NCBI GenBank assembly: GCA_041671305.1
Contig: JBAZBX010000001.1
Span: forward strand, 40,821-104,820
Direction of reading: 5' to 3'
DNA: 64,000 bases
DNA from: Patescibacteria group bacterium
GTDB taxonomy: Bacteria; Patescibacteriota; Patescibacteriia; 2-01-FULL-39-33
The notes beneath the pieces were generated by a model. It was given only the letters and a program-made list of their open reading frames with translations, searched no databases and was not told where the DNA came from. How positions within the stretch are numbered: position 1 is the stretch's first letter; each line of letters starts with the position of its first letter. Shown piece by piece: positions 2,193 through 38,397 of this stretch. The position numbers were made by a program, and so were the translations under genes.

Positions 2193-3674
2193 ATGAATAA
2201 TAATTATAAATACTGGCAAACAATTACATATAGCGGCACCCATCACCCCATTCTTTTTATTGATACAGTGTTTCGTGGTTACCAAAATGGAATCATTGGT
2301 AAATTTTTTAATATACGATTCAATCCATCTCACTACCGACAGTTCAATGGAGCGCGTTGGTGGTTATCAGAAGAGGTAGATAAATATATATGTACTTTAA
2401 AAAATAAAAAAGAAAAATCACCAGGTACCTTACTGAAAAAAGCAAACGAATATTACCAGCTCAATAAAAATTTTCTAGCATGGGCAGAGAAAAATAGAAA
2501 AATAAATTTTAAAGGACTGACTAATCAAAAAATACTTCATGCATTTAGACAATGCGTTGATCAGTTAGCTACCATCAATGCTCTTGTATATACTGCCGTC
2601 TTTCTTGATAAATTTTATACCGATGATATTATTGAAATAGTCAACACAAAAACAACAGACCCAATAGCTCAACGTCACATTTTAACAGTAATCTTTTCAG
2701 TTCCATGGGGACTTGAATCGCACCTTGAAAAAGTCTCATTACTTCGCTTAGTTCAAAAAAAGCGGGATAAAATAAGCGAAGAAAAATTAAAACGACTCAT
2801 TAATTCATACCGTTTAAGATTCGGTTCCGTCTTTATGATGCCATTCCAATCAAACCCGTTGTCCATCACCACAGTTTTGCAAAAAGTTAATATGCTAGCT
2901 CGCAACGAAAAAAAATATAATCTCTTAAAATCAGAAATAAAAGAATTACAAGACACGGGAAAAAAATTTAGTAAAATATGCAAATCATTGAAGCTATCAA
3001 CTGAAGAAAAAAGGGAAATAGATACTTTGCGTCGTTGGACTTTTGTTGCCAATAATGATGATCCTTATGTTATGAAATCATTAAATCTCTTACAGCCGTT
3101 ATGGGATGAACTTGCCAGAAGACTTAATCTCACCTTTGAACAATTAATTGAACTACAAATACATGAAGTAGAAAAATTCATAGTGACTGGTGTTTCTGCA
3201 GAATTACGACAAGAATTAAAGTTAAGAAAAAACGCGGCGTTAGTGTGGGATCATTTAGGGACTCATCTATTTACTGGTCAAAAACTTAAAAGTTATATAA
3301 ACAAACAAGGGGCAACGAAAAAAATAAAACAAATAAACGCCGTGAAAGGATTGTCGGCATCGCCTGGAAAAGCCCGCGGGAGAGTCTTTATTCTACATTC
3401 TATTTATGATATTCCCAAAATAAAAAAAGGTGCTATTTTACTTGCGCCATATACATATCCCGCCATTGTTGCGGCTATGCGAAAAGCGAGTGCGATTGTC
3501 ACGGATCAAGGAGGATTACTATCCCACGCAGCAATAATATCGCGTGAAATGAAAAAGCCCTGTATTGTAGGGACCAATGTGGCGACACGGATTTTCCAAG
3601 ATGGGGATTTGGTAGAGGTTGATGCAGATAACGGGATAATAAAATTATTAAAAAAACGAGATAAAGAGCCTTGA
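2193..3674 (+). CDS. PEP-utilizing-enzyme mobile (phosphohistidine swivel) domain protein with an uncharacterized N-terminal domain
   Basis: C-terminal GGLLSHAAIISREMKKPCIVG motif typical of the PpsA/PPDK/RPH swivel His domain. The N-terminal ~350 aa are not recognizable. Confidence 0.6.
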   Translation: MNNNYKYWQTITYSGTHHPILFIDTVFRGYQNGIIGKFFNIRFNPSHYRQFNGARWWLSEEVDKYICTLKNKKEKSPGTLLKKANEYYQLNKNFLAWAEKNRKINFKGLTNQKILHAFRQCVDQLATINALVYTAVFLDKFYTDDIIEIVNTKTTDPIAQRHILTVIFSVPWGLESHLEKVSLLRLVQKKRDKISEEKLKRLINSYRLRFGSVFMMPFQSNPLSITTVLQKVNMLARNEKKYNLLKSEIKELQDTGKKFSKICKSLKLSTEEKREIDTLRRWTFVANNDDPYVMKSLNLLQPLWDELARRLNLTFEQLIELQIHEVEKFIVTGVSAELRQELKLRKNAALVWDHLGTHLFTGQKLKSYINKQGATKKIKQINAVKGLSASPGKARGRVFILHSIYDIPKIKKGAILLAPYTYPAIVAAMRKASAIVTDQGGLLSHAAIISREMKKPCIVGTNVATRIFQDGDLVEVDADNGIIKLLKKRDKEP

Positions 3675-3714
3675 TTTAGAAATGTTAATTAAAGTATTTA
3701 TTTAATTTAAACAT

Positions 3715-4395
3715 ATGAATAACATTTTTTTAATTTTCGGGTATGGGATACCCAAAAATATTTCAAAAGACGAGAATTATAATCTTTATTTAAAAACAAT
3801 TTTCAATAAAATTTACGATCTTAATACCAAAGACAAGCCAAAGAAATCTTTGATTATTTGCTGTGGCGGAAAAACTGATATGATACAGCCTTACGCGAGA
3901 AATGAGGCTGATGAAATAATTAAATTTTTCACAGAATTGATAAAACAAAGGCCGTTTTTGGCTCCGATAACCAAGAATTGGCTTTTTATTCCAGAGAAAA
4001 AATCTCTGTCCACCTTGGAAAACTTTATCAATAGTAGACAAATTATTGAAAAACAAAATATTAAAAAAGCCAATATTATAATTTTCTGCGAACAAACACG
4101 GGAGAAACGCATAAAAATTTTAGCCAAAAAAATATTTAATAAAAATTATAATTCTCAAGTTGTGCCGATTGATTTTGATGTTTCTTCAAACAGATACTTA
4201 TCACCGAATTTCCTTGCCAAAAAAGAGAAGGCTGAACTTGAACATTCTTTGTGGGCGCTAAAAAGTCCAGAAAATCTGAAAAGACATCACGAGGTGTTCG
4301 CGGAGAAGATTAAATACTTACGGAAAGCAGGATCAAAAATGCATGTTGAGGCTGTCCGAGATTGGTGGGAAGAAAAACTTAAGGAATTAAAATAA
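3715..4395 (+). CDS. Hypothetical protein, possibly DUF218/YdcF-like
   Basis: LIICCGG and SLSTLEN motifs weakly reminiscent of the DUF218 family; 226 aa. Confidence 0.3.
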   Translation: MNNIFLIFGYGIPKNISKDENYNLYLKTIFNKIYDLNTKDKPKKSLIICCGGKTDMIQPYARNEADEIIKFFTELIKQRPFLAPITKNWLFIPEKKSLSTLENFINSRQIIEKQNIKKANIIIFCEQTREKRIKILAKKIFNKNYNSQVVPIDFDVSSNRYLSPNFLAKKEKAELEHSLWALKSPENLKRHHEVFAEKIKYLRKAGSKMHVEAVRDWWEEKLKELK

Positions 4396-4410
4396 ATAAT
4401 AAAAATAATT

Positions 4411-4737
4411 ATGGCTTGTCTCATAGCACCAGCAACCGTGGCAGTAATTACTACGGTCGTCAGAAAAAAAATTCCCGCGAAGTACCACATTGAATGGCTC
4501 AATACCATGCTTTGGGGCGGAGTGATCATGCTGATAATTGATCATGTCATCAGCGGTGAAATTGTATTCTATCCCCCATTTCTGACAGCTATGCGAAGTC
4601 CTGCTGATACTATTGTCATGCTCAAAGAGATAGCTACTACGGGCGTAGCCATGACCATCGCGATTTTTCTATCCTGGACAGTGATGATCTTGATTGCAAA
4701 TAGAACTGAAAAGCTAAAACTAAAAAAATCAATTTAA
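4411..4737 (+). CDS. Small hypothetical membrane protein
   Basis: 108 aa with two or three hydrophobic helices. Confidence 0.35.
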   Translation: MACLIAPATVAVITTVVRKKIPAKYHIEWLNTMLWGGVIMLIIDHVISGEIVFYPPFLTAMRSPADTIVMLKEIATTGVAMTIAIFLSWTVMILIANRTEKLKLKKSI

Positions 4738-4740
4738 AAT

Positions 4741-4776
4741 AAAAAAATAAAAACGACCTCTTGTAGGCGGGTCGTT
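4741..4776 (-). terminator. Rho-independent terminator (minus strand)
   Basis: ACGACC...GGTCGT stem followed by a T-run on the minus strand, downstream of the 4846..5082 gene. Confidence 0.5.
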
Positions 4777-4845
4777 GTAGCCTTTGGCAAAACTTTACAG
4801 AAAAAAGTACTCTATGTTTTTTTACTTCTGCACTGCTCGTCTTTT

Positions 4846-5082
4846 TCATAAGTTATCCTCCCTTATCTCCTGTTCGGCCAATTCTTTCGTCGGAAAGACT
4901 TTGGCCTGGTTAATGCTCTCCGTCCACTTCCTTCTTTCGGACGGATCAGCGTACACGGTACGCCACTGGGCATCAAACAATCCTCCCCTTTGAATCACCC
5001 ATTCACCGCGGACTCGTTCCACATGAACAGGTTTCAAAGATGCGCCCATCGTTTTGGGCCTAGTCAACAACTCAATCATGAT
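4846..5082 (-). CDS. Small hypothetical protein encoded in a GC-rich island
   Basis: GC-rich ORF. The longest ORF runs to 5268, but its N-terminus overlaps the ABC-F terminator. GAAGGAGAG sits 6 nt upstream of the ATG (MIELL...), which favours a start at 5082. Confidence 0.4.
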   Translation of the reverse strand: MMIELLTRPKTMGASLKPVHVERVRGEWVIQRGGLFDAQWRTVYADPSERRKWTESINQAKVFPTKELAEQEIREDNL

Positions 5083-5220
5083 CTTCTCTCCTTCCATTTC
5101 TCCTTGTTGTTGCGCTCTCCCTCGGGTTTGAGCACCTAAATAAACAACGAATTTCACTCGGCCTATATCATAACACATCGCTAAATATCTGTCAATACCA
5201 TTTTTGACCAAATTAGCCAA

Positions 5221-5246
5221 AAACAACAAAACTCCCAAAAGGGAGC
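5221..5246 (-). terminator. Rho-independent terminator of the ABC-F gene
   Basis: GCTCCC-TTTT-GGGAGT hairpin followed by a T-run on the minus strand just after the stop at 5271. Confidence 0.6.
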
Positions 5247-5270
5247 TTTTATTAATTATTTTAATCAAAA

Positions 5271-6725
5271 TTAAACTTTATTCAGATCCAAATATTCGTC
5301 AATTCTAATCTGTTTGACAAAATCAGGCATGTGACTGACCAGAATCATCGCGCCCTCAAAATCATTAATTGCCTTAGCAATAACCGGAATATGCCGGAAA
5401 TTAATATGATTAGTCGGCTCATCCAGCACCAATAATCCCGGCCGCATCAGAACCAATCTGGCAAAGGACAAGAGTCCCTTTTGCCCCTCAGACAAACTCC
5501 CCACAGTATGATCCATTAACTCTCCGGTAATAAGTAATCCTGCCGCCGTAGATCTCATTTCCTGCTCCGTAATATCATCATCCAGGATAGCGCTCTTGAG
5601 AGAATTAAAAACAGTCTCATCAAAATTGAGCTGAGAGAAATCCTGACTATAATATCCAATTCTGACGCCTTCAGTAATAGTAGCGCCTTCAGCCTTGCCA
5701 GCCACAAGAAAACGCAAAAACGTGCTTTTGCCAATACCGTTGGGACCGGTTACTAGCAGATGCGTCTTCTTGCGAAGCACCACGTCCACATCTTTGAGCA
5801 ATGGCAAATGATTATAAAAAGACAAAACTGATTTGATCGTCACAACCTCGGTCTTAATATTTTGTTCAGGAATGGTAAAATTTCTAATGGTTTTGTCTTC
5901 TCGTCTGACATCCACAATATTGTCTTCTTGCTCTTCAATTTCATCTCTGAGTTTCTTGGCTAATTTTCTCATCTTACCACCTTTATTGGCAAAAAAATTA
6001 ACTTTTTCTTTGCGATCTCTGATTAATTTTTCCGCGCGGGCATTTTCCATCTGTTCTCTCTCAATCCTTTTGGAAATTTCTTCCACCACTGAGTAATAAT
6101 CGCCCACATAAGCCTCAATCTTGTGAGTAAAGACGTCTAAGTATATGACTCCTTCCGTAAAACAATTAAGAAAATCAGCGTCATGGGAAATTACTATAAC
6201 CGTCTTCTCGTACATCACCAGAAAAGTAATCAAGTGATCAATGCCGTCAGAATCAAGATTATTGGTCGGCTCATCAAGCAACAAAATATCCGGATCCTGA
6301 ATCAAAGCATAAGCCAAAAGTAACCTGGCCTGCTGTCCACCGCTCATATCCCCCACTTTCCTCTCCAAAGGCATATTCAAATTAACCGCTTCCAAAACCT
6401 TGCTAATCCTGCTTTTGAGATTGCCCGGAACCATAGTAAACGCCTTGGCAAAATATTTTTCCACGGTCAACTCCAAATCATCTCTATCCATAGTCTGTCT
6501 AGCCGTACCAATGGTGGCGTCGTTGGTGATAGAAATTCTCCCCTTTTGCGGTTTAATTTTTCCCTGGATGAGATTAAAAATCGTGCTTTTACCGGCACCA
6601 TTTTGGCCCATCAAAGTAATTTTCGCGCCCTTGCGCACACTGAAACTAGCCTCTTCCAAAAGAGGTTTTTTGTATGCGTATTCAAATGAAACTTCATCAA
6701 AACGAAGTATTACTTCTTCGGCCAT
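5271..6725 (-). CDS. ABC-F family ATPase (tandem ABC domains, no TMD; translation-associated)
   Basis: Two Walker A motifs (GQNGAGKST, GPNGIGKST) and two ABC signatures (LSGGQQARL, LSEGQKGLL). Confidence 0.85.
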   Translation of the reverse strand: MAEEVILRFDEVSFEYAYKKPLLEEASFSVRKGAKITLMGQNGAGKSTIFNLIQGKIKPQKGRISITNDATIGTARQTMDRDDLELTVEKYFAKAFTMVPGNLKSRISKVLEAVNLNMPLERKVGDMSGGQQARLLLAYALIQDPDILLLDEPTNNLDSDGIDHLITFLVMYEKTVIVISHDADFLNCFTEGVIYLDVFTHKIEAYVGDYYSVVEEISKRIEREQMENARAEKLIRDRKEKVNFFANKGGKMRKLAKKLRDEIEEQEDNIVDVRREDKTIRNFTIPEQNIKTEVVTIKSVLSFYNHLPLLKDVDVVLRKKTHLLVTGPNGIGKSTFLRFLVAGKAEGATITEGVRIGYYSQDFSQLNFDETVFNSLKSAILDDDITEQEMRSTAAGLLITGELMDHTVGSLSEGQKGLLSFARLVLMRPGLLVLDEPTNHINFRHIPVIAKAINDFEGAMILVSHMPDFVKQIRIDEYLDLNKV

Positions 6726-6879
6726 AATTTATATTATAAAAACCCAAGGATCTTCTTAGGTTTGTCTCTGCATTACTGCAGTATAATAGCATATTTTATA
6801 TAATCTTGCAACCACAAATCCCTGAAGCCCTAGAATACGCTTAAAATTTAATTTCAAAAATAGCGTAAAAAAAAGAGGG

Positions 6880-7320
6880 CCCGACGCGATGATCTTGGAG
6901 GGTGATCGCGTCGGGCGGGAGTTGGGACTCCGAGGGGGTTAGGTACACGACAAATTGACAATAGCGAGGGGGTGCTGGAAGAGGGTGTTCCTCTCGCCAT
7001 TACACAACTCGTCGTGCAAAAAAACTTTTTTGGAGGAAGGTGGACCGAAAAACAGCAATCACTCCCTTTTCATGCTAGTCGTCACATCACGCGCATTGTA
7101 CACAAAAAATGACTAGCATGTCACCGAATCGGTGATGTGGCGGGTGTTGTACACCACAGGATGATTCAACTAAATTCCGTCCACCTTCCTCACTACATAT
7201 ATGGCCGCCCTTATCATCAATCAACCGTTCCAACCGTTCGTGTTTCACAGACATAAGGGTCGAGCCAAGCCTCTTGGGATGAGGCATTTGGGGCTAAAGA
7301 AAGAACGACTCTAAAACAAT
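6880..7320. ncRNA. GC-rich, highly structured, apparently non-coding segment (candidate structured RNA of unknown class)
   Basis: About 55% GC in an AT-rich genome with almost no ORF. Hairpin 6883-6918. Long-range 13-bp helix GGAGGAAGGTGGAC (7031-7044) / GTCCACCTTCCTC (7178-7190). Crossing helices 7071-7079/7110-7118 and 7082-7089/7131-7138 form a pseudoknot. Confidence 0.3.
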
Positions 7321-7774
7321 TACATTATATTAAAATTAGATATAAAAGTCAAGATTTATACAACAAAATCTTTTTATTTCATTTTAAAAGCTAATTTAGA
7401 AGGTTAATTAGGCCAGCTATATCAAATTAACGATTAGTGTGCTAAGATTAAACTCTAATTAAGAACCTACGGGGAAATGGTCGTGACCACGTATTAAGTC
7501 CAGAAATGGATACTACTAGATACCAAATACCATGACAGAAGATACAACAGAAGAAACAACAGAGGAAACTCCTGAAGTTGCTACAGAAGAAAAAACAACA
7601 GAGGAAGCCGCTTCATAGACAATGAAAACGAAGCAAAAAAAGAAAAAATCCCCACTAAACTAGTGAGGCTTTTTTCTTTTGGGTAGAGAACTGGCTGAGT
7701 GAAACAAAATTTTCAAATTTTTGAGTGAGCCAAATTTGGGCTGGACTTCGGCGCTAAGCGCCGGAAATTCCGAA

Positions 7775-7892
7775 TGGCTGGGTGTTTATGAACAAATCCG
7801 AACCGAATTTAAACAAAAATCATGATCGGGCGGGCGGAATCCCCCCCAAACCCCTCCTTCCGCCCGACCTAAACATCTGGACGGCTGAGGCG
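7775..7892. repeat. 118-bp inverted repeat, left copy (IR-L)
   Basis: 100% identical to the reverse complement of 9326..9443. Contains an internal TCGGGCGG...CCGCCCGA hairpin. Confidence 0.9.
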
Positions 7893-7904
7893 AAATAGCA
7901 ATTT

Positions 7905-8951
7905 TCAATTTTTCTTTGGCGGCGAATTTTTTTCTCCTTCTTTAACTATTTCCCTTACTTCATTGTAACTTATCTGCCTTGGCCATAATAGATTGCCGTG
8001 AGCATCATAAATTGGCAGAAGAAAATCAACCCGGTCTCCATAAATCTTTCTCATTAATGTAGCTATTTCATTTGCTTTATTTTGTTTGCTTTCATCATCA
8101 TCAACTTCTTTATACCTATGTATTTTTCTTAAAACTTCTTGTGGGACATATGGTTGTTTTTTATATAAATTATCCATTTCCTCCTCTGTCTGTTCTGCCA
8201 TGGCTCTTATTACAATACCCTTAAACCGGTCTGGAGCAATTCGAAAAGACAAAGCGTAGCCCTCAGAATAGTCAGGAATCCTTCTGTCTCCTTCTTCAAA
8301 ATATTCTTCTCTTTCTGATCCTGGTCTAGCATGGGCTCCGAAAGTATTACTTTTATACTGTAATTTTTCTCTTTTGCCAAGGTCATAATCCAATGCATAA
8401 TTGGCAATTTCAGTATTTTCCTTAAAATCTGCTGTATCAAAAATTATTCCCAAGGAGGTTTGGCTTGTTCCAATGGGTCTAAACCAATGGGCGTCTTCGA
8501 TTTTTCTTAAATCCCGACCAACAATATTGAAAAAAACAACGGCCCCCATTTTTTTTCTAACAGCGCTAACCCAATCTTGTTCAGGACTGTTAGGATTCAA
8601 TTTTCCTAATAAACCCTTTCGAAGTATACCGCCTAATTTAATGGTGGAATTATCATCTTCAAGTATTCTAACAGAATGAAATCCTGTCCCCGGTTTATTT
8701 ATATCTTGTATTTTTTCCATTATTCTCTCAACCACTTCAGGTAGTAGTTCGGGAGGAATAGGGATGTCGGAATTATCAATATTTTGATCTGCATTTTCCA
8801 CGTCCAAAATATCGCTTTCGACTTGATAATCATCAGGAGAAAAATCCTCACCCTTCTCAGGATATTTTTCTTTCAATTTTTCTTGTAGCCTTTGGGCTTC
8901 TTTTAGAGCGTCATCGTTGTTTAATCGACCGCTTTCAAATCTTTTTTCCAT
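7905..8951 (-). CDS. Hypothetical 348-aa protein (cargo of the IR-flanked cassette)
   Basis: Long ORF 5 nt downstream of the XRE HTH gene on the same strand. No recognizable domain. Confidence 0.55.
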   Translation of the reverse strand: MEKRFESGRLNNDDALKEAQRLQEKLKEKYPEKGEDFSPDDYQVESDILDVENADQNIDNSDIPIPPELLPEVVERIMEKIQDINKPGTGFHSVRILEDDNSTIKLGGILRKGLLGKLNPNSPEQDWVSAVRKKMGAVVFFNIVGRDLRKIEDAHWFRPIGTSQTSLGIIFDTADFKENTEIANYALDYDLGKREKLQYKSNTFGAHARPGSEREEYFEEGDRRIPDYSEGYALSFRIAPDRFKGIVIRAMAEQTEEEMDNLYKKQPYVPQEVLRKIHRYKEVDDDESKQNKANEIATLMRKIYGDRVDFLLPIYDAHGNLLWPRQISYNEVREIVKEGEKNSPPKKN

Positions 8952-8955
8952 AAAT

Positions 8956-9162
8956 TTATTTCAATAACTCCCACGCCTCCACTCCTAAAGCGTGAGCTAG
9001 TCTATTTAAATTTTCTAATGTGGGATTAACTTGACCACTCTCGACTCGACATATATAGGCGCGATCTATTTTACTAGAACGAAAAACATCGCCTTGCGTA
9101 AGACTTTTTTCCTCTCTTATTCTCTTGAAATTATACGCTAATTTTTTACTTAATTTATGCAT
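8956..9162 (-). CDS. XRE/Cro-C1-type helix-turn-helix transcriptional regulator
   Basis: LTQGDVFRSSKIDRAYICRVESGQVNPTLENLNRLAHALGV, a classic HTH_3 pattern; 68 aa. Confidence 0.75.
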   Translation of the reverse strand: MHKLSKKLAYNFKRIREEKSLTQGDVFRSSKIDRAYICRVESGQVNPTLENLNRLAHALGVEAWELLK

Positions 9163-9245
9163 AGTTATCCACAGTCATTTTAACAATTATTGTATATCTT
9201 AACAATATTGTAGTATACTACAATATGTAAGTGAAATTTTGCATT

Positions 9246-9272
9246 AAGAAAAAGAAAAAGTTTGATTCTGGC
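9246..9272. repeat. 27-bp inverted repeat IR2-a (partner 9533..9559)
   Basis: AAGAAAAAGAAAAAGTTTGATTCTGGC is the exact reverse complement of 9533-9559. Confidence 0.85.
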
Positions 9273-9302
9273 CAAAATAAAGTTCGAGCCGATTTTTTTA
9301 AT
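9273..9302. repeat. 30-bp inverted duplicate (B') of the recombinase 3' coding segment 10901..10930
   Basis: CAAAATAAAGTTCGAGCCGATTTTTTTAAT equals the reverse complement of 10901-10930. Confidence 0.85.
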
Positions 9303-9325
9303 CTGGTTCTTTGGCGGTTTTATTC

Positions 9326-9443
9326 CGCCTCAGCCGTCCAGATGTTTAGGTCGGGCGGAAGGAGGGGTTTGGGGGGGATTCCGCCCGCCCGATCATGATT
9401 TTTGTTTAAATTCGGTTCGGATTTGTTCATAAACACCCAGCCA
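9326..9443. repeat. 118-bp inverted repeat, right copy (IR-R)
   Basis: Reverse complement is identical to 7775..7892. The outer end CACCCAGCCA resembles the tRNA-Gln 3' end CCCGCAGCCA. Confidence 0.9.
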
Positions 9444-9512
9444 GTTTCGTTTTTCATTTTTTAAAACCGAATCCCAACCGTTTTTTGGCTTAAATTCAAA
9501 TTTTTTGCCTTG
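9441..9512. repeat. 72-bp inverted duplicate (A') of the tRNA-Gln 3' end plus downstream flank (10931..11002)
   Basis: The reverse complement of 10931-10999 is identical to 9444-9512, and the CCA is also shared. Confidence 0.85.
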
Positions 9513-9532
9513 GTTCCGATTACAATCGGAAC
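9513..9532. promoter_or_regulatory. 20-bp perfect dyad site GTTCCGATT-AC-AATCGGAAC (candidate recombinase crossover site or HTH operator)
   Basis: Perfect 9-bp arms around a non-palindromic AC dinucleotide, 40 bp upstream of the serine recombinase start. Confidence 0.35.
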
Positions 9533-9559
9533 GCCAGAATCAAACTTTTTCTTTTTCTT
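9533..9559. repeat. 27-bp inverted repeat IR2-b
   Basis: Reverse complement of 9246-9272. Confidence 0.85.
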
Positions 9560-9574
9560 TAATTCAATACAAAT

Positions 9575-11062
9575 ATGAAATACTTTCTTTATGCCCGCAA
9601 GTCGACAGACGAAGAGGATCGTCAAGTTCTTTCAATTGAAGCCCAGCTCGCGGAGTTGAAGGAGTTAGCCGCCAAAGAAAAATTGGAAATTGCGGACTCG
9701 CTCTGCGAGTCCAAAACCGCCAAAGAACCAGGCCGAAAAATTTTCGGCGGAATGCTCGCTCGGATTGAAAAAGGTGAGGCCGACGGAATTTTAGCGTGGC
9801 ACCCAGATAGATTGGCCAGAAATAGCGTTGATGGTGGAAAAATTATCTACATGGTGGATATCGGCCAGATCAAAACGCTAAAATTCCCGACTTTTTGGTT
9901 TGAGAATACTCCGCAAGGGAAATTCATGCTCAATATCGCTTTCGGCCAAAGCAAATACTATGTTGATAATTTAAGCGAAAATGTTAAACGTGGTTTCAGG
10001 CAAAAGTTAAGGCGCGGCGAATATCCCAATAAAGCGCCCATCGGCTATCTTAACGACCGAACAGCTAAAACCGTGCTCATTGATCCTCTGCGCGCCAAGC
10101 TCGTGATAAAGATGTTTAAGATGTACAACACGGGAGAATTTTCGCTTAAATTTCTTAAAGATAAGTTTTGCGATATTGGCCTGACCAGCAAGCGCGGCAA
10201 AATCCTGACTGTCGGCATGATTTCTAACATATTGAATAATCCCTTTTATTGCGGAGTATTCAAGTTTAATGGCGAAATCTACCAAGGCAAGTACGAGCCA
10301 ATTATTTCCAAGAAGCTTTTTGATGAAGTTCAGGCGGTAATGAAAAACCGAGGACGGCCGCTCGGGCAAGACAAACACGATTATGCTTTTACTGGACTTA
10401 TGAAATGCAAGTGCGGCGCCTGCATTACCGCCGAACGGCAAAAAGGCCATATCTATTATCGCTGTACGAAAAAGCTTGGAGCCTGCGACGAAAAGTATAT
10501 CCGCGAAGAAAAACTGCTGGAGCAATTCCATGGCCTTTTTCAAAAAGTTTCTTTGCCAGATGACTGGATTGACAAGATGCTCGCTAAACTCGATGAGGAA
10601 CAAAAAAGCGACATGAAGTCATCGGTAGGTCTGATTGACGAGGTAAAAACGCAAATAGGAGCCATAGAGAGCAAGCTAGATAAGTTGCTCGATGATCGAT
10701 TAGAAGGATTACTCGATAAGGACGACTATTTGCGGAAGAAGGAACAACTCATCAATCAGAAAATTGCTTTTGAGGAGAAAATCCAGTCAATCAGGCAAAC
10801 GGGAAATAATTGGCTCGAACCGATGCGGGAATTCCTTTCCGCCAATAAACAAACCAAAAAAGTCGCCAATAGCGGCGACATTCTGGAAATCCGAGCATTC
10901 ATTAAAAAAATCGGCTCGAACTTTATTTTGCAAGGCAAAAAATTTGAATTTAAGCCAAAAAACGGTTGGGATTCGGTTTTAAAAAATGAAAAACGAAACT
11001 GGCTGCGGGACCTGGAGTCGAACCAAGATAACAGCTTTCAGAGAGCTGCGTCCTACCATTAG
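9575..11062 (+). CDS. Large serine recombinase (resolvase/invertase catalytic domain, recombinase domain and zinc-ribbon)
   Basis: YARKST catalytic-serine motif near the N-terminus; CKCGACITAERQKGHIYYRC zinc ribbon; 495 aa. The last ~20 codons are antisense to tRNA-Gln. Confidence 0.9.
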   Translation: MKYFLYARKSTDEEDRQVLSIEAQLAELKELAAKEKLEIADSLCESKTAKEPGRKIFGGMLARIEKGEADGILAWHPDRLARNSVDGGKIIYMVDIGQIKTLKFPTFWFENTPQGKFMLNIAFGQSKYYVDNLSENVKRGFRQKLRRGEYPNKAPIGYLNDRTAKTVLIDPLRAKLVIKMFKMYNTGEFSLKFLKDKFCDIGLTSKRGKILTVGMISNILNNPFYCGVFKFNGEIYQGKYEPIISKKLFDEVQAVMKNRGRPLGQDKHDYAFTGLMKCKCGACITAERQKGHIYYRCTKKLGACDEKYIREEKLLEQFHGLFQKVSLPDDWIDKMLAKLDEEQKSDMKSSVGLIDEVKTQIGAIESKLDKLLDDRLEGLLDKDDYLRKKEQLINQKIAFEEKIQSIRQTGNNWLEPMREFLSANKQTKKVANSGDILEIRAFIKKIGSNFILQGKKFEFKPKNGWDSVLKNEKRNWLRDLESNQDNSFQRAASYH

Positions 11063-11073
11063 ACGATCCCGCA
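11000..11073 (-). tRNA. tRNA-Gln (anticodon CUG)
   Basis: Manual fold gives U1-A72 acceptor pair, U8, D-stem GTCT/GGAC, anticodon loop CTCTGAA with U33 and A37, T-loop TTCGACT, discriminator G and an encoded CCA. Confidence 0.8.
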
Positions 11074-11098: not shown

Positions 11099-11353
11099 TT
11101 AAATATGCTCTTCCAAAACCAGTCTTAAGCTGTTTTTCCCTTTCAATTCAATAGCGTTTTGTTTACTTAAACACGCCTCATAATATACCAACTCGAGTGG
11201 TTGCCTTTCCTTTGTTGAATTTACTTGTCCACTATTATGCAAATAAATCCTTTTTCTTAAATCTTGAGTAAATCCAATATAATATCTTTCATCCGCCAAA
11301 CTCTTTAACACATAAGTGTAATAAAATTGCATATATCTATTAAACCTATCCAT
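11099..11353 (-). CDS. GIY-YIG nuclease-family protein (UPF0213-like)
   Basis: YYTYVLKS...YYIGFTQDLRKRIYLHNSG...LVYYE. The longest ORF extends to 11404 through a GC-rich palindromic stretch, so the start is uncertain. Confidence 0.65.
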   Translation of the reverse strand: MDRFNRYMQFYYTYVLKSLADERYYIGFTQDLRKRIYLHNSGQVNSTKERQPLELVYYEACLSKQNAIELKGKNSLRLVLEEHI

Positions 11354-11477
11354 TGGACGACCCGCCTGCAACGCTTTGCGTAGCAATGCGGGCAGGTCCC
11401 GCAAAATAATTTAATCCAAAAAAGCACTATAGTGCTTTCTATAAATTAACAAAAAATAGCAAAAAAATCAAGTGAGA

Positions 11478-13330: not shown

Positions 13331-13507
13331 AGCAAGATTGGGGGTTTGGGGGAAGCACCTTTCGCCAAAGCGCGAGTGTAAGCCGAACCTCAGCCAGCAG
13401 GATGAGGTGAGCGAAACGAAGCGCGACTAAGCAAGATAAAAAACACTCCGAGCATAAGGCGAAATTGCGTCCCCCAAAACCTTTGGTTCTTTCAGTTATG
13501 AAAGAAC
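13331..13507 (+). ncRNA. Copy 1 of a ~180-nt GC-rich structured element (candidate sRNA or cis-regulatory leader)
   Basis: Near-identical to 23770..23945. Terminal GGGGGTTTGGGGGA / TCCCCCAAAACC pairing, internal helices, and a 3' hairpin GTTCTTTC-agttat-GAAAGAAC. Confidence 0.45.
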
Positions 13508-13680
13508 ATAAATTAAACTTTTTTAAAAAATGGGTTGAATATAAGAGAAATTATCCAAAATTAGATAAAATATAGGATTAATACTTCCTATCTATTGACA
13601 AAAGTACAAATATATACTATATTATAGGGTCACAATGAGTGACGGAAGCACATCACAACCAAAAAGGAGCATTGACTGTC

Positions 13681-23769: not shown

Positions 23770-23945
23770 AGCAAGATTGGGGTTTGGGGGAAGCACCTTT
23801 CGCCAAAGCGCGAGTGTAAGCCGAACCTCAGCCAGCAGGATGAGGTGAGCGAAACGAAGCGCGACTAAGCAAGATAAAGAACACTCCGAGCATAAGGCGA
23901 AATTGCGTCCCCCAAAAGCTTTGGTCCTTTCGCTTACGAAAGGAC
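23770..23945 (+). ncRNA. Copy 2 of the ~180-nt structured element, about 75 nt upstream of metA
   Basis: About 98% identical to copy 1 over the body. The 3' hairpin GTCCTTTC-gcttac-GAAAGGAC carries compensatory T>C and A>G changes relative to copy 1. Confidence 0.45.
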
Positions 23946-24019
23946 AGAAGAAATATTTGACCAAATCCGGAAACCATTGATATAATTAACTAGATTTAGT
24001 TAATAATCCATTATTCATT

Positions 24020-38213: not shown

Positions 38214-38397
38214 ATTTGTAATAATTAAAATTACGAATTAATAATTGAAAAAATAAAAACTGTGGTTTTCCACAGGGTAAAATAGCTAAATCTAGCTAAT
38301 TCCTCGGTAGGTCTTATGTCTTTAATGACGCCTACTGTCTGTGGAAAATTAAGTTATGCATAAATTATAACAAAATATAAAGAAAAGTCAACATTTA

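What the first reader, a model, noticed from the sequence alone, without database searches (positions are those of the whole stretch)
9575..11073. Serine recombinase 3' end overlaps tRNA-Gln on the opposite strand
The last ~20 codons of the 495-aa recombinase ORF are antisense to most of a well-formed tRNA-Gln(CUG) at 11000-11073. tRNA 3' ends are classic integration targets. The overlap suggests an element that integrated at, and now reconstitutes, the tRNA gene, or a recombinase ORF whose true stop is earlier. Part of the duplicated segments described above includes the tRNA CCA end.
Basis: partly seen in the sequence, partly recalled or inferred. Interest (0 to 1): 0.55.

Follow-up and report, generated by a model that had tools for sequence, protein, structure and literature searches.

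The report
Serine-integrase island inserted in tRNA-Gln
The overlap is the right-hand junction of a 3.2-kb mobile island whose large serine recombinase inserts into the 3' end of tRNA genes, a target hardly documented for this enzyme class, and the island carries perfect inverted copies of its own attachment site that I could not explain.

Summary
A 495-aa large serine recombinase (LSR) ORF (9575-11062, +) runs 63 nt into an intact tRNA-Gln(CUG) (11000-11073, -).

This is the attR junction of an integrated element (about 7775-11005). attP sits at the very 3' end of the LSR gene. The crossover lies in TGGCTG, the complement of the tRNA's ...CAGCCA-3'. The last 20 codons are an accidental read-through of the tRNA antisense.

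The whole LSR family behaves this way. In 108 of 134 related loci a convergent tRNA of at least 13 isotypes abuts the gene. In 67 of 69 loci the element's P' arm carries a T-loop-like CGAAC motif exactly 5 nt further from the crossover than in the tRNA, which is the classic LSR attP/attB geometry.

The LSR gene and the cargo (mostly restriction/defence genes) are each flanked by about 99-100% identical inverted repeats that meet at an internal, inverted, complete attP. One subfamily, including this window, adds a mosaic of exact reverse-complement patches of the LSR gene.

L140 shows that the internal attP recombines. L099 and L100 show the LSR cassette in both orientations, though assembler mis-orientation is not excluded.

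How these copies stay identical, and what they are for, is unexplained. I found no published description.

The parts
7712..7774 (+). Left flank of site 1. It resembles the P arm (LSR 3' end) of a related element: either a remnant of earlier occupancy or a third, decayed P arm.
   Evidence: 45/55 nt identical to the L005 LSR 3' end, against 32/55 to the window's own P arm. It translates as FKFLSEPNLGWTSALSAGNSEW.
7775..7780 (+). Site 1 core TGGCTG (attL-type junction, left end of the element).
   Evidence: Same hexamer as at 11000-11005 and, inverted, at 9438-9443. It is the boundary of the 123-nt inverted repeat.
7781..7897 (+). X' (the P' arm of attP). It holds the T-loop-like motif AAATCCGAACC, the codons of the alternative LSR tail, and a GC-rich hairpin.
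   Evidence: 99% reverse complement of 9321-9437. Motif geometry; hairpin; tail.
7898..7926 (+). Patch b: reverse complement of LSR codons 31-40.
   Evidence: 27/29 complementary to 9665-9693. The same position is occupied in 22 Type I loci, with a 0-5 nt gap from X'.
7905..8951 (-). Cargo ORF, 348 aa, no Pfam family.
8956..9162 (-). Cargo-side HTH_3 (XRE-type) regulator, first gene of the cargo operon.
   Evidence: Pfam HTH_3 E 8e-11. The same first gene appears in several related elements.
9246..9272 (+). Patch c: reverse complement of the LSR 5' UTR (9533-9559).
   Evidence: 27 nt, 100%
9273..9302 (+). Patch d: reverse complement of LSR codons 443-452 (10901-10930).
   Evidence: 30 nt, 100%
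9303..9321 (+). Patch e: reverse complement of LSR codons 47-52 (9713-9731).
   Evidence: 19 nt, 100%
9321..9437 (+). X: inverted copy of the P' arm, with a terminator-like hairpin followed by TTTTTGTTT.
9438..9443 (+). Site 2 core CAGCCA (inverted). Together with X and P1' it forms a complete inverted attP.
9444..9512 (+). P1': inverted copy of the P arm (the last 23 conserved LSR codons).
   Evidence: 100% reverse complement of 10931-10999. The arms co-vary between lineages.
9512..9531 (.). Palindrome Y (GTTCCGATTACAATCGGAAC) between P1' and the LSR 5' UTR. Possible operator or -10 region (inferred only).
9575..11062 (+). Large serine recombinase ORF, 495 aa. Conserved to W475; residues 476-495 are tRNA-antisense read-through.
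9694..9712 (+). Hairpin 'pal' inside the LSR coding sequence (8-bp stem, 3-nt loop), flanked by b' (9665-9693) and e' (9713-9731).
   Evidence: -14.3 kcal/mol, z -5.3. It co-varies across Type I loci: stem of 7 or more in 56/144 loci against 7/864 control windows.
10931..10999 (+). P1: the P arm of attP, lying inside the LSR 3' coding end.
11000..11005 (+). Site 3 core TGGCTG (attR crossover region). It is the complement of the tRNA's 3' CAGCCA.
11000..11073 (-). tRNA-Gln(CUG), intact, with CCA encoded.

Best explanation
Window 7775-11005 is a small integrated mobile island. It consists of an XRE regulator, one unknown cargo gene and a large serine recombinase (LSR), and it sits in the 3' end of tRNA-Gln(CUG). 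Its attP lies at the extreme 3' end of the LSR gene: the P arm is the last 23 conserved codons, and the crossover falls within TGGCTG, the complement of the tRNA's discriminator and CCA region. The P' arm imitates the tRNA T arm but places its CGAAC motif 5 bp further out. Integration joined the P arm to the tRNA body, giving attR at 11000-11005, so the LSR ORF now reads on through the antisense tRNA to the first stop. That read-through is the observed overlap. The tRNA is restored because the exchanged nucleotides are identical. These steps are shown by sequence anatomy and family comparison. Catalysis itself is inferred from what is known of LSRs. The element also keeps a complete inverted attP (9321-9512) between cargo and LSR, so each module is bracketed by perfect inverted repeats. 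I infer that this internal attP is a live site. It can recombine with a tRNA-type site, which would invert the LSR cassette against the adjacent tRNA junction, or capture a second tRNA. The orientation convergent with the tRNA is the quiescent state that accumulates.
For: Anatomy. Three sites share the core. Site 2 read in reverse equals the left half of site 3 plus the right half of site 1, as expected for attP, attR and attL.

Family. 108 of 134 loci have a convergent tRNA at the LSR 3' end, covering at least 13 isotypes. Homologue C-termini keep W (TGG, the complement of CCA) and then D/E-S-N-P/Q (the T loop read antisense).

Geometry. CGARY lies exactly 5 nt further from the crossover in P' than in the tRNA arm in 67 of 69 loci. 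This matches the known attP versus attB half-site offset of LSRs.

Domains. Resolvase, Recombinase and Zn ribbon are present. Ser10 and Arg8 are invariant.

Cargo. It differs between close relatives while the arms are conserved. Across loci it is mostly restriction-modification and other defence genes.

Internal attP is active. In L140 two different full-length tRNA-Ser genes, in inverted orientation, are each joined precisely at ...GCCA to a P arm flanking one LSR gene.

Inversion. L099 and L100 are 100% identical over about 8 kb, but the LSR cassette has opposite orientation relative to tRNA-Asn and the host flank. L007 and L131 are also flipped.
Against: No empty tRNA-Gln site and no excised circle were recovered. 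The exact tRNA 3' sequence gave no metagenome hit.

The left flank of site 1 is not clearly native DNA, so the true left boundary is uncertain.

No recombination directionality factor (RDF) candidate was identified.

Flipped orientations are rare (about 6 of roughly 160 loci). For perfect repeats of about 130 nt they could be assembler mis-orientation. Only L007 (diverged arm) and L140 (97% arms) escape that objection.

A crossover at the core does not explain why the repeat arms and the 19-30-nt patches stay about 99-100% identical.

attP x attR recombination is not canonical for characterised LSRs.
Confidence: 0.85

Rival explanations
1. The ORF is over-extended. The real recombinase ends before the tRNA, and the overlap is an annotation accident with no mobile-element meaning.
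For: Residues 476-495 are not conserved as protein and have pLDDT below 50.
Against: There is no in-frame stop before 11060. Conservation runs to W475, whose codon is the complement of CCA. The same read-through occurs at 108 of 134 loci with different tRNAs. The att-site triad defines an inserted element.
Confidence: 0.03
2. The inverted repeats and patches are assembly or amplification chimeras rather than real genome structure.
For: All copies are reverse complements of nearby sequence at about 100% identity, a pattern that MDA or graph errors can produce. Many contigs break at the arms.
Against: The same layout occurs in more than 120 loci from unrelated projects and assemblers, including what appear from their length (0.77 and 1.8 Mb) to be long-read contigs (L021, L055) and a complete genome (L038). 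The arms differ between lineages yet match within each genome. A k141 contig spans the 75-nt arm.
Confidence: 0.02
3. The internal inverted attP and patches are not recombination substrates. They act at the RNA level. A small RNA (about 9226-9410: c-d-e plus the X hairpin and U tract) would be antisense to the LSR 5' UTR, codons 47-52 and codons 443-452, and would silence the recombinase.
For: c, d and e are contiguous, all antisense to the LSR mRNA, and sit just 5' of a terminator-like hairpin. Type II genes instead pair their 5' UTR with an internal CDS stretch.
Against: There is no G:U excess among mismatches (9 G:T against 13 A:C in patches). The promoter scan is not above background. The fold is not better than shuffles (z -1.2). 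This model does not explain the full attP copy or L140.
Confidence: 0.15
4. The repeats matter in a single-stranded DNA stage, for example uptake by competence. One strand folds so that the internal attP splints the two element ends, and the patches form two perfect multi-helix junctions. This rebuilds a duplex attP or promoter and lets repair homogenise all copies.
For: The abutments are exact: c|d, d'|P1, P1'-(Y)-c' and e|X, X'|b, b'-pal-e'. Hairpins Y and pal lie exactly at the junction points. Divergence is equal for 19-nt patches and 300-nt arms, which fits copying or repair in one folded molecule.
Against: No serine recombinase is known to use folded ssDNA. Type II elements lack the patches yet keep the same life style. 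There is no direct evidence of an ssDNA stage.
Confidence: 0.1
5. The arrangement is a frozen accident: a second, gutted copy of the LSR unit into which cargo was inserted, kept in inverted orientation only because direct repeats would be deleted.
For: The left part reads as blocks of the LSR unit (c'-cargo-b', e'-d', P1-core-X'), each inverted in place. Inverted repeats cannot delete cargo. A few loci (L125, L126) manage without an inverted attP.
Against: Patch positions and near-perfect identity persist across LSRs only 50-60% identical. The pal hairpin co-varies. The internal attP has demonstrably recombined.
Confidence: 0.15

Closest known systems
Phage-type large serine integrases (Bxb1, phiC31, A118/LI, SPbeta, phiFC1)
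   Same: Domain order of Resolvase, Recombinase and Zn ribbon with a long helical insert. A short shared core. The attP half-site motif lies 5 bp further out than the attB half-site motif. Recombination is conservative, with no long direct repeats.
   Different: At most 28% identity to any phage or plasmid LSR in the collections searched. Only the catalytic domain hits the PDB. The family is almost absent from viral contigs: 2 relatives in 2.9 million. The target is a tRNA 3' end. attP lies inside the integrase gene. There is a second, inverted attP. No RDF candidate was seen.
Tyrosine-integrase genomic islands in tRNA/tmRNA genes (Islander/TIGER class; Williams 2002)
   Same: Insertion at the tRNA 3' end with restoration of the gene. 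The integrase gene sits next to the tRNA. Accessory and defence cargo. Serial occupancy of one tRNA.
   Different: The enzyme is a serine recombinase, not a tyrosine recombinase. The shared core is only 3-9 nt rather than a long duplicated tRNA segment. Mageeney et al. [quoted passage not shown]
SSV1-type (fusellovirus) integrases whose gene contains attP
   Same: attP lies within the integrase ORF, so integration changes the gene's 3' end. The target is a tRNA gene.
   Different: Those are archaeal tyrosine recombinases split roughly in the middle. Here only about 16-20 terminal codons are swapped in a bacterial serine recombinase.
Hin/Gin/Pin invertible segments that carry their own invertase
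   Same: The recombinase gene lies inside a segment bounded by inverted repeats. Both orientations are seen.
   Different: Those use small serine invertases (about 190 aa) with 26-bp hix/gix sites and a Fis enhancer, and they switch an adjacent gene. Here the repeats are 68-159-nt att arms of a large integrase, and orientation is strongly biased (about 96:4).
Yeast 2-micron plasmid, and engineered inverted-attP landing pads used for recombinase-mediated cassette exchange (RMCE)
   Same: If excised, the element would be a circle with two unique segments separated by two identical inverted repeats, each holding the recombinase's own site. L140 looks like the product of both attPs recombining with two inverted attBs, as in RMCE.
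   Different: No replication genes are present. 2-micron uses the tyrosine recombinase Flp. RMCE is an artificial design. A natural counterpart did not turn up in my literature searches.

Membership tests
Large serine recombinase (serine integrase) | N-terminal resolvase-type catalytic domain with a Ser nucleophile | tested here: met
   PF00239 E 3.6e-19. R8, S10 and other residues are invariant in 27 sequences. PDB 3g13 catalytic domain E 5.6e-08.
Large serine recombinase (serine integrase) | Recombinase domain plus zinc-ribbon domain C-terminal to the catalytic domain | tested here: met
   PF07508 E 2.4e-13 and PF13408 E 3.6e-07. Conserved Cys residues C278, C280, C297 and C304.
Large serine recombinase (serine integrase) | Coiled-coil motif inserted in the zinc-ribbon domain | tested here: inconclusive
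   The AF2 model shows long helices at 311-446 followed by two strands at 450-459, but mean pLDDT is 64 and pTM 0.31.
Large serine recombinase (serine integrase) | attP half-sites longer than attB half-sites (distal motif about 5 bp further from the centre) | tested here: met
   CGARY offset of +5 nt in 67 of 69 loci.
Large serine recombinase (serine integrase) | 2-nt staggered double-strand cleavage at a central dinucleotide; unidirectional attP x attB reaction reversed by an RDF | not testable with these tools
   Only a 3-9 nt shared core can be read from sequence. No RDF candidate was recognised among the cargo.
tRNA-integrating genomic island (tyrosine-integrase class) | Tyrosine recombinase (Phage_integrase domain) | tested here: not met
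   The only recombinase in the element is a serine recombinase.
tRNA-integrating genomic island (tyrosine-integrase class) | Island flanked by a direct repeat of a tRNA 3' segment; tRNA restored | tested here: inconclusive
   The tRNA is restored, but the direct repeat is only the 6-nt core.
Hin/Gin-type DNA invertase switch | Small serine invertase with a C-terminal HTH, about 26-bp inverted sites and a recombinational enhancer | tested here: not met
   The protein is a 495-aa LSR. The repeats are 75-nt att arms. An enhancer was not tested.
Hin/Gin-type DNA invertase switch | The segment is found in both orientations within a population | tested here: inconclusive
   L099 and L100 are identical over about 8 kb with opposite cassette orientation, but mis-orientation by an assembler across 129-nt perfect repeats cannot be excluded.
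2-micron-like amplifying plasmid | Autonomous replication origin or Rep functions plus inverted repeats carrying the recombinase target | tested here: not met
   Inverted repeats with the target are present. No replication genes were found in 93 cargo ORFs.
IS607-type serine transposon | Small serine recombinase with an N-terminal MerR-like HTH; low target specificity | tested here: not met
   The domain order is LSR-type. Targets are specific tRNA 3' ends.

The most novel reading that the evidence does not exclude
This is a previously undescribed class of compact mobile islands, widespread in Patescibacteria and other uncultured phyla, built on a tRNA-T-loop-reading serine integrase. The element carries two identical inverted attP sites. 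Because the tRNA junction it creates (P arm-core-tRNA) still works as an attB, the integrase would get a reversible self-inversion and cassette-exchange capability without any directionality factor. In one subfamily, a conserved junction-forming mosaic of gene patches would reveal a so far unknown nucleic-acid-level step (a folded single strand or RNA) that keeps all copies identical.
Probability: 0.3. Interest if true: 0.85.

Novelty: new variant of a known kind. Interest (0 to 1): 0.7.

Why it matters
1. Serine integrases are the workhorses of genome engineering and are regarded as targeting protein genes or intergenic sites. A large natural family that reads the universally conserved tRNA T arm, and has retargeted to at least 13 isoacceptors by changing a few core nucleotides, would offer portable landing sites in almost any bacterium, including the genetically intractable candidate phyla radiation.

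2. It fills a gap noted in the literature: tRNA use by serine integrases was flagged as unreported and unproven in 2020 (PMC7192596).

3. The elements ferry restriction and other defence genes in organisms with tiny genomes. They therefore bear on how Patescibacteria exchange immunity.

4. The dual inverted attP looks like a natural version of cassette exchange. The perfectly maintained 19-30-nt mosaic is a concrete, testable puzzle about how repeats are kept identical.

Tried and rejected
- Exact look-up of the window's LSR found no contig on record.
- A metagenome scan for the tRNA-Gln 3' end, meant to find empty sites, gave 0 hits. No attB or excised circle was obtained.
- Viral contigs held only two family members. 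The phage and plasmid collections held only relatives at 28% identity or less. I dropped a prophage or plasmid origin.
- I tested whether a mini-ORF could express the duplicated LSR C-terminus from the inverted copy. There is no start codon in frame.
- I tested an RNA-pairing signature (G:U excess) in repeat mismatches and found none. Promoter and terminator scans and folding of the putative small RNA were not above background.
- I tested whether site 1 left flanks are generally P-arm-like. This was not significant in 40 loci. It holds only for the window/L005 lineage.
- ARAGORN in tmRNA mode found no tmRNA targets.
- Rfam found nothing in the GC-rich region at 6860-7300.
- I tried to derive the patch mosaic from simple series of reciprocal exchanges, circular permutations or deletions of a dimer. 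No parsimonious path emerged. Only two descriptions fit: 'blocks inverted in place' and 'junction fold'.
- Literature searches found no description of this family or architecture.
Full report
OBSERVATION

ARAGORN finds a single tRNA in the window: tRNA-Gln(ctg) at 11000-11073 on the minus strand. Rfam's tRNA model scores 58 bits against a gathering score of 29. The plus-strand ORF at 9575-11062 encodes 495 aa with Resolvase, Recombinase and Zn_ribbon_recom domains, so it is a large serine recombinase (LSR). The two features overlap by 63 nt, which is 20 codons plus the stop.

WHAT THE JUNCTION IS

Repeat searches show three sites sharing the hexamer TGGCTG, the complement of the tRNA's 3' CAGCCA:
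- Site 1 at 7775-7780.
- Site 2 at 9438-9443, inverted.
- Site 3 at 11000-11005, inside the tRNA.

9438-9512 is the exact reverse complement of 10931-11005 (75 nt). 9321-9443 is the 99% reverse complement of 7775-7897 (123 nt). Read in reverse, site 2 therefore equals the left half of site 3 plus the right half of site 1. This is the relation expected between an intact attP (P1-core-X'), an attR (P1-core-tRNA) and an attL (flank-core-X').

The P arm (P1) is the last 23 conserved codons of the LSR. Beyond the crossover the ORF simply continues through the antisense tRNA. In the attP form the protein would end ...NWLGVYEQIRTEFKQKS*. Between site 1 and site 3 lie an unknown 348-aa ORF, an XRE-type HTH gene and the LSR.

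THE WHOLE FAMILY DOES THIS

The LSR has thousands of homologues, mostly from Patescibacteria MAGs. In an alignment of 27, conservation runs to ...IGSNFILKGKKFxFxxKxGW, then a variable stretch, then W. After that come tails such as LRDLESNQ, LPGSDSNRRP and LGDRESNPDC. W is TGG, the complement of CCA. D/E-S-N-P/Q is the T loop (GGTTCGAATCC) read antisense.

I fetched 80 loci from reference genomes and 80 from JGI metagenomes. Of 134 loci with at least 150 nt after the LSR match, 108 have a convergent tRNA at the LSR 3' end. The isotypes are Gln, Asn, Ser, Leu, Arg, Trp, Glu, Ala, His, Tyr, Lys, Met and Val, and also Gly and Pro. At least one 'tRNA-less' locus (L083) abuts the 3' exon of a tRNA split by a group I intron. 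This fits the report that such tRNAs escape standard tools in Patescibacteria (PMC13011429).

ATT-SITE GEOMETRY

The element's P' arm carries a family-wide motif, AAATCCGAAC(C), that resembles the tRNA T arm read antisense (GAGTCGAACC). In 67 of 69 loci the CGARY pentamer lies exactly 5 nt further from the crossover in P' than in the tRNA arm. This is the established difference between attP and attB half-sites of serine integrases, where the zinc-ribbon-domain motif is displaced outward at attP. That point rests on published LSR structural work recalled from memory, not re-read here. The enzyme thus appears to read the conserved T arm. That explains how the family has spread over many isoacceptors while the shared core (3-9 nt) tracks each tRNA's acceptor end.

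RELATION TO KNOWN ENZYMES

- The nearest phage or plasmid LSRs are at most 28% identical.
- Only the catalytic domain finds a PDB relative.
- Only two family members occur in 2.9 million viral contigs.
- Mageeney et al. 2020 found t(m)RNA use by serine integrases in 14 of 297 islands. [quoted passage not shown]
- The large LSR survey by Durrant et al. does not mention tRNA.
- My other searches found no description of this family.

CARGO

27 genome loci and 18 metagenome loci show both repeat pairs. In the 27 genome loci the cargo is 0.8-7.4 kb. The 93 cargo ORFs fall into 79 clusters.

A first gene encoding a small (~70-aa) protein, confirmed as HTH_3 in the window and L012, recurs in several elements, followed by:
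- type I restriction-modification subunits, Res plus methylase pairs, GmrSD, Mrr, or SNF2 plus DUF2779;
- or metabolic genes (multicopper oxidase, radical SAM, aminotransferases).

There are no replication, conjugation or virion genes. L005 shares the window's LSR (88% at DNA level), arms and left flank but has an unrelated 3.9-kb cargo.

THE UNEXPECTED ARCHITECTURE

In 127 of about 163 loci the LSR gene is bracketed by an inverted repeat of 42-159 nt (median 94). The mean identity is 99.0%, and 71 are perfect. Its outer end is the crossover core. In 45 loci with enough sequence, a second repeat pair of 68-330 nt (98.75% identity) brackets the cargo and meets the first pair at site 2.

The arms differ between lineages yet match within each genome. 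For example, L001 differs from the window at 8 of 75 positions in both arms.

The layout is not an assembly artefact. It occurs in what appear from their length (0.77 and 1.8 Mb) to be long-read contigs (L021, L055), in a complete genome (L038) and in a k141 contig that spans a 75-nt arm.

TWO SUBFAMILIES

Type II (48 loci) has only the two long repeat pairs.

Type I (40 loci, including the window) has shorter arms plus four exact patches:
- c is the reverse complement of the LSR 5' UTR.
- d is the reverse complement of the 10 codons just before the P arm.
- e is the reverse complement of codons 47-52.
- b is the reverse complement of codons 31-40.

The order is always [site 1 core-X'-b ... 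cargo ... c-d-e-X-core-P1'-(Y)-c'-LSR]. The abutments are almost gap-free: c|d 0-3 nt, d|e 0-5, e|X 0-3, d'|P1 -1 to 5, X'|b -1 to 5. Between b' and e' there are always 17-19 nt.

Those 17-19 nt are a hairpin inside the coding sequence (codons for ASLCEA and the like) that co-varies. Examples are GGACTCGC/GCGAGTCC in the window, GCTTCCT/AGGAAGC and GCCTCTT/AAGAGGC elsewhere. A stem of 7 or more occurs in 56 of 144 loci against 7 of 864 control windows.

On a single strand these abutments would give two perfect multi-helix junctions:
- J1 holds f (the 75-nt P1':P1 repeat), Y, c:c' and d:d'.
- J2 holds e:e', X:X', b:b' and pal.

An equivalent description is that the left part is a gutted second copy of the LSR unit whose three blocks are each inverted in place.

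Mismatch rates are alike for the LSR arms (0.87%), the cargo arms (0.71%) and the patches (0.94%). There is no G:U excess. This argues for DNA-level copying rather than RNA-level selection or length-dependent gene conversion. I cannot name the mechanism.

IS THE INTERNAL attP ALIVE?

In L140 the LSR gene lies between two different, full-length tRNA-Ser genes (GCT and TGA) in inverted orientation. Each is joined at ...GCCA to a P arm. That is what results if both attPs of such an element recombine with two tRNA sites.

L099 and L100 come from different samples and are 100% identical over about 8 kb, except that the LSR cassette is inverted relative to tRNA-Asn and 6.4 kb of host DNA. This may be a true inversion polymorphism. 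It may also be mis-orientation across 129-nt perfect repeats.

L007 is flipped with a diverged upstream arm, and its patches e' and d' are direct repeats right after an intact attP, so flipping has happened in evolution. L131, L070 and L028 are also flipped.

Orientation is nevertheless about 96% 'LSR convergent with tRNA'.

In the window and in L005, the 55 nt left of site 1 are 82-84% identical to L005's LSR 3' end. This suggests that an attR (P arm-core-tRNA) can itself serve as a target.

WORKING MODEL (inferred)

The junction P-core-tRNA retains the tRNA half-site and so behaves as an attB. The internal attP can then recombine with it. Because both partners carry the same P arm, the products are again an attP and an attB-like site. 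This would give a reversible inversion without a directionality factor. The orientation in which the LSR is convergent with the strongly transcribed tRNA would be the silent, accumulating state. A few loci (L125, L126) lack an inverted attP, so it is not required for integration.

CAVEATS

- No empty site or excised circle was recovered.
- The left boundary is uncertain.
- No RDF is evident.
- The AF2 model is of modest quality.
- Nothing here tests catalysis.

VERDICT

The finding is real. Its first interpretation is right: it is the attR of an LSR island in tRNA-Gln. It also opens onto a large, apparently undescribed family with an unusual and partly unexplained architecture.

Noticed in passing
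window 6860-7300: A GC-rich stretch of about 440 nt between an ABC-F-like gene and the element. It has many local hairpins and no convincing ORF, and Rfam gives no hit even at E<=1. It may be an unknown structured RNA.
   Followed up: partly
window 13341-13511 and 23779-23949: A 171-nt direct repeat, 95% identical, with the two copies 10.4 kb apart.
   Followed up: no
window 11099-11404 (-): A GIY-YIG nuclease-domain ORF lies immediately beyond the tRNA-Gln. Its 5' end is a GC-rich sequence unlike the surrounding DNA.
   Followed up: no
window 38245-38362 (-): Ribosomal protein L10 leader (Rfam 57.6 bits). An ordinary feature.
   Followed up: no
L083 9468-9852: The LSR abuts the 3' exon of a tRNA gene interrupted by a group I intron (Intron_gpI 89 bits). 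The flanks of L038 and L040 look similar. Integration therefore also targets intron-containing tRNAs that ARAGORN misses.
   Followed up: partly
L140 33-1940: One LSR cassette lies between two inverted, different tRNA-Ser genes, both joined to P arms. This looks like a natural cassette-exchange or chromosomal-inversion product.
   Followed up: partly
L045 7970-7988/8343-8361; L030 7968-7989/8261-8282: In Type II genes the LSR 5' UTR (-33 to -12) is perfectly complementary to an internal coding stretch of 19-22 nt. This could occlude the ribosome-binding region.
   Followed up: no
P0003, P0026, P0117; L003: Unusually long family members: 865 and 817 aa, plus a 559-aa HTH-LSR fusion. L003 reads into two tandem tRNA-Ser genes.
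   Followed up: no
L125/L126 about 2457-9541: Family members with a direct attL-like site 5.5 kb upstream and no inverted attP. A simple single-attP architecture also exists in the family.
   Followed up: partly
window 7688-7711: A further degenerate TGGCTG plus P'-like stretch lies just left of the P-arm-like flank. This suggests a stack of older att scars at this tRNA.
   Followed up: partly
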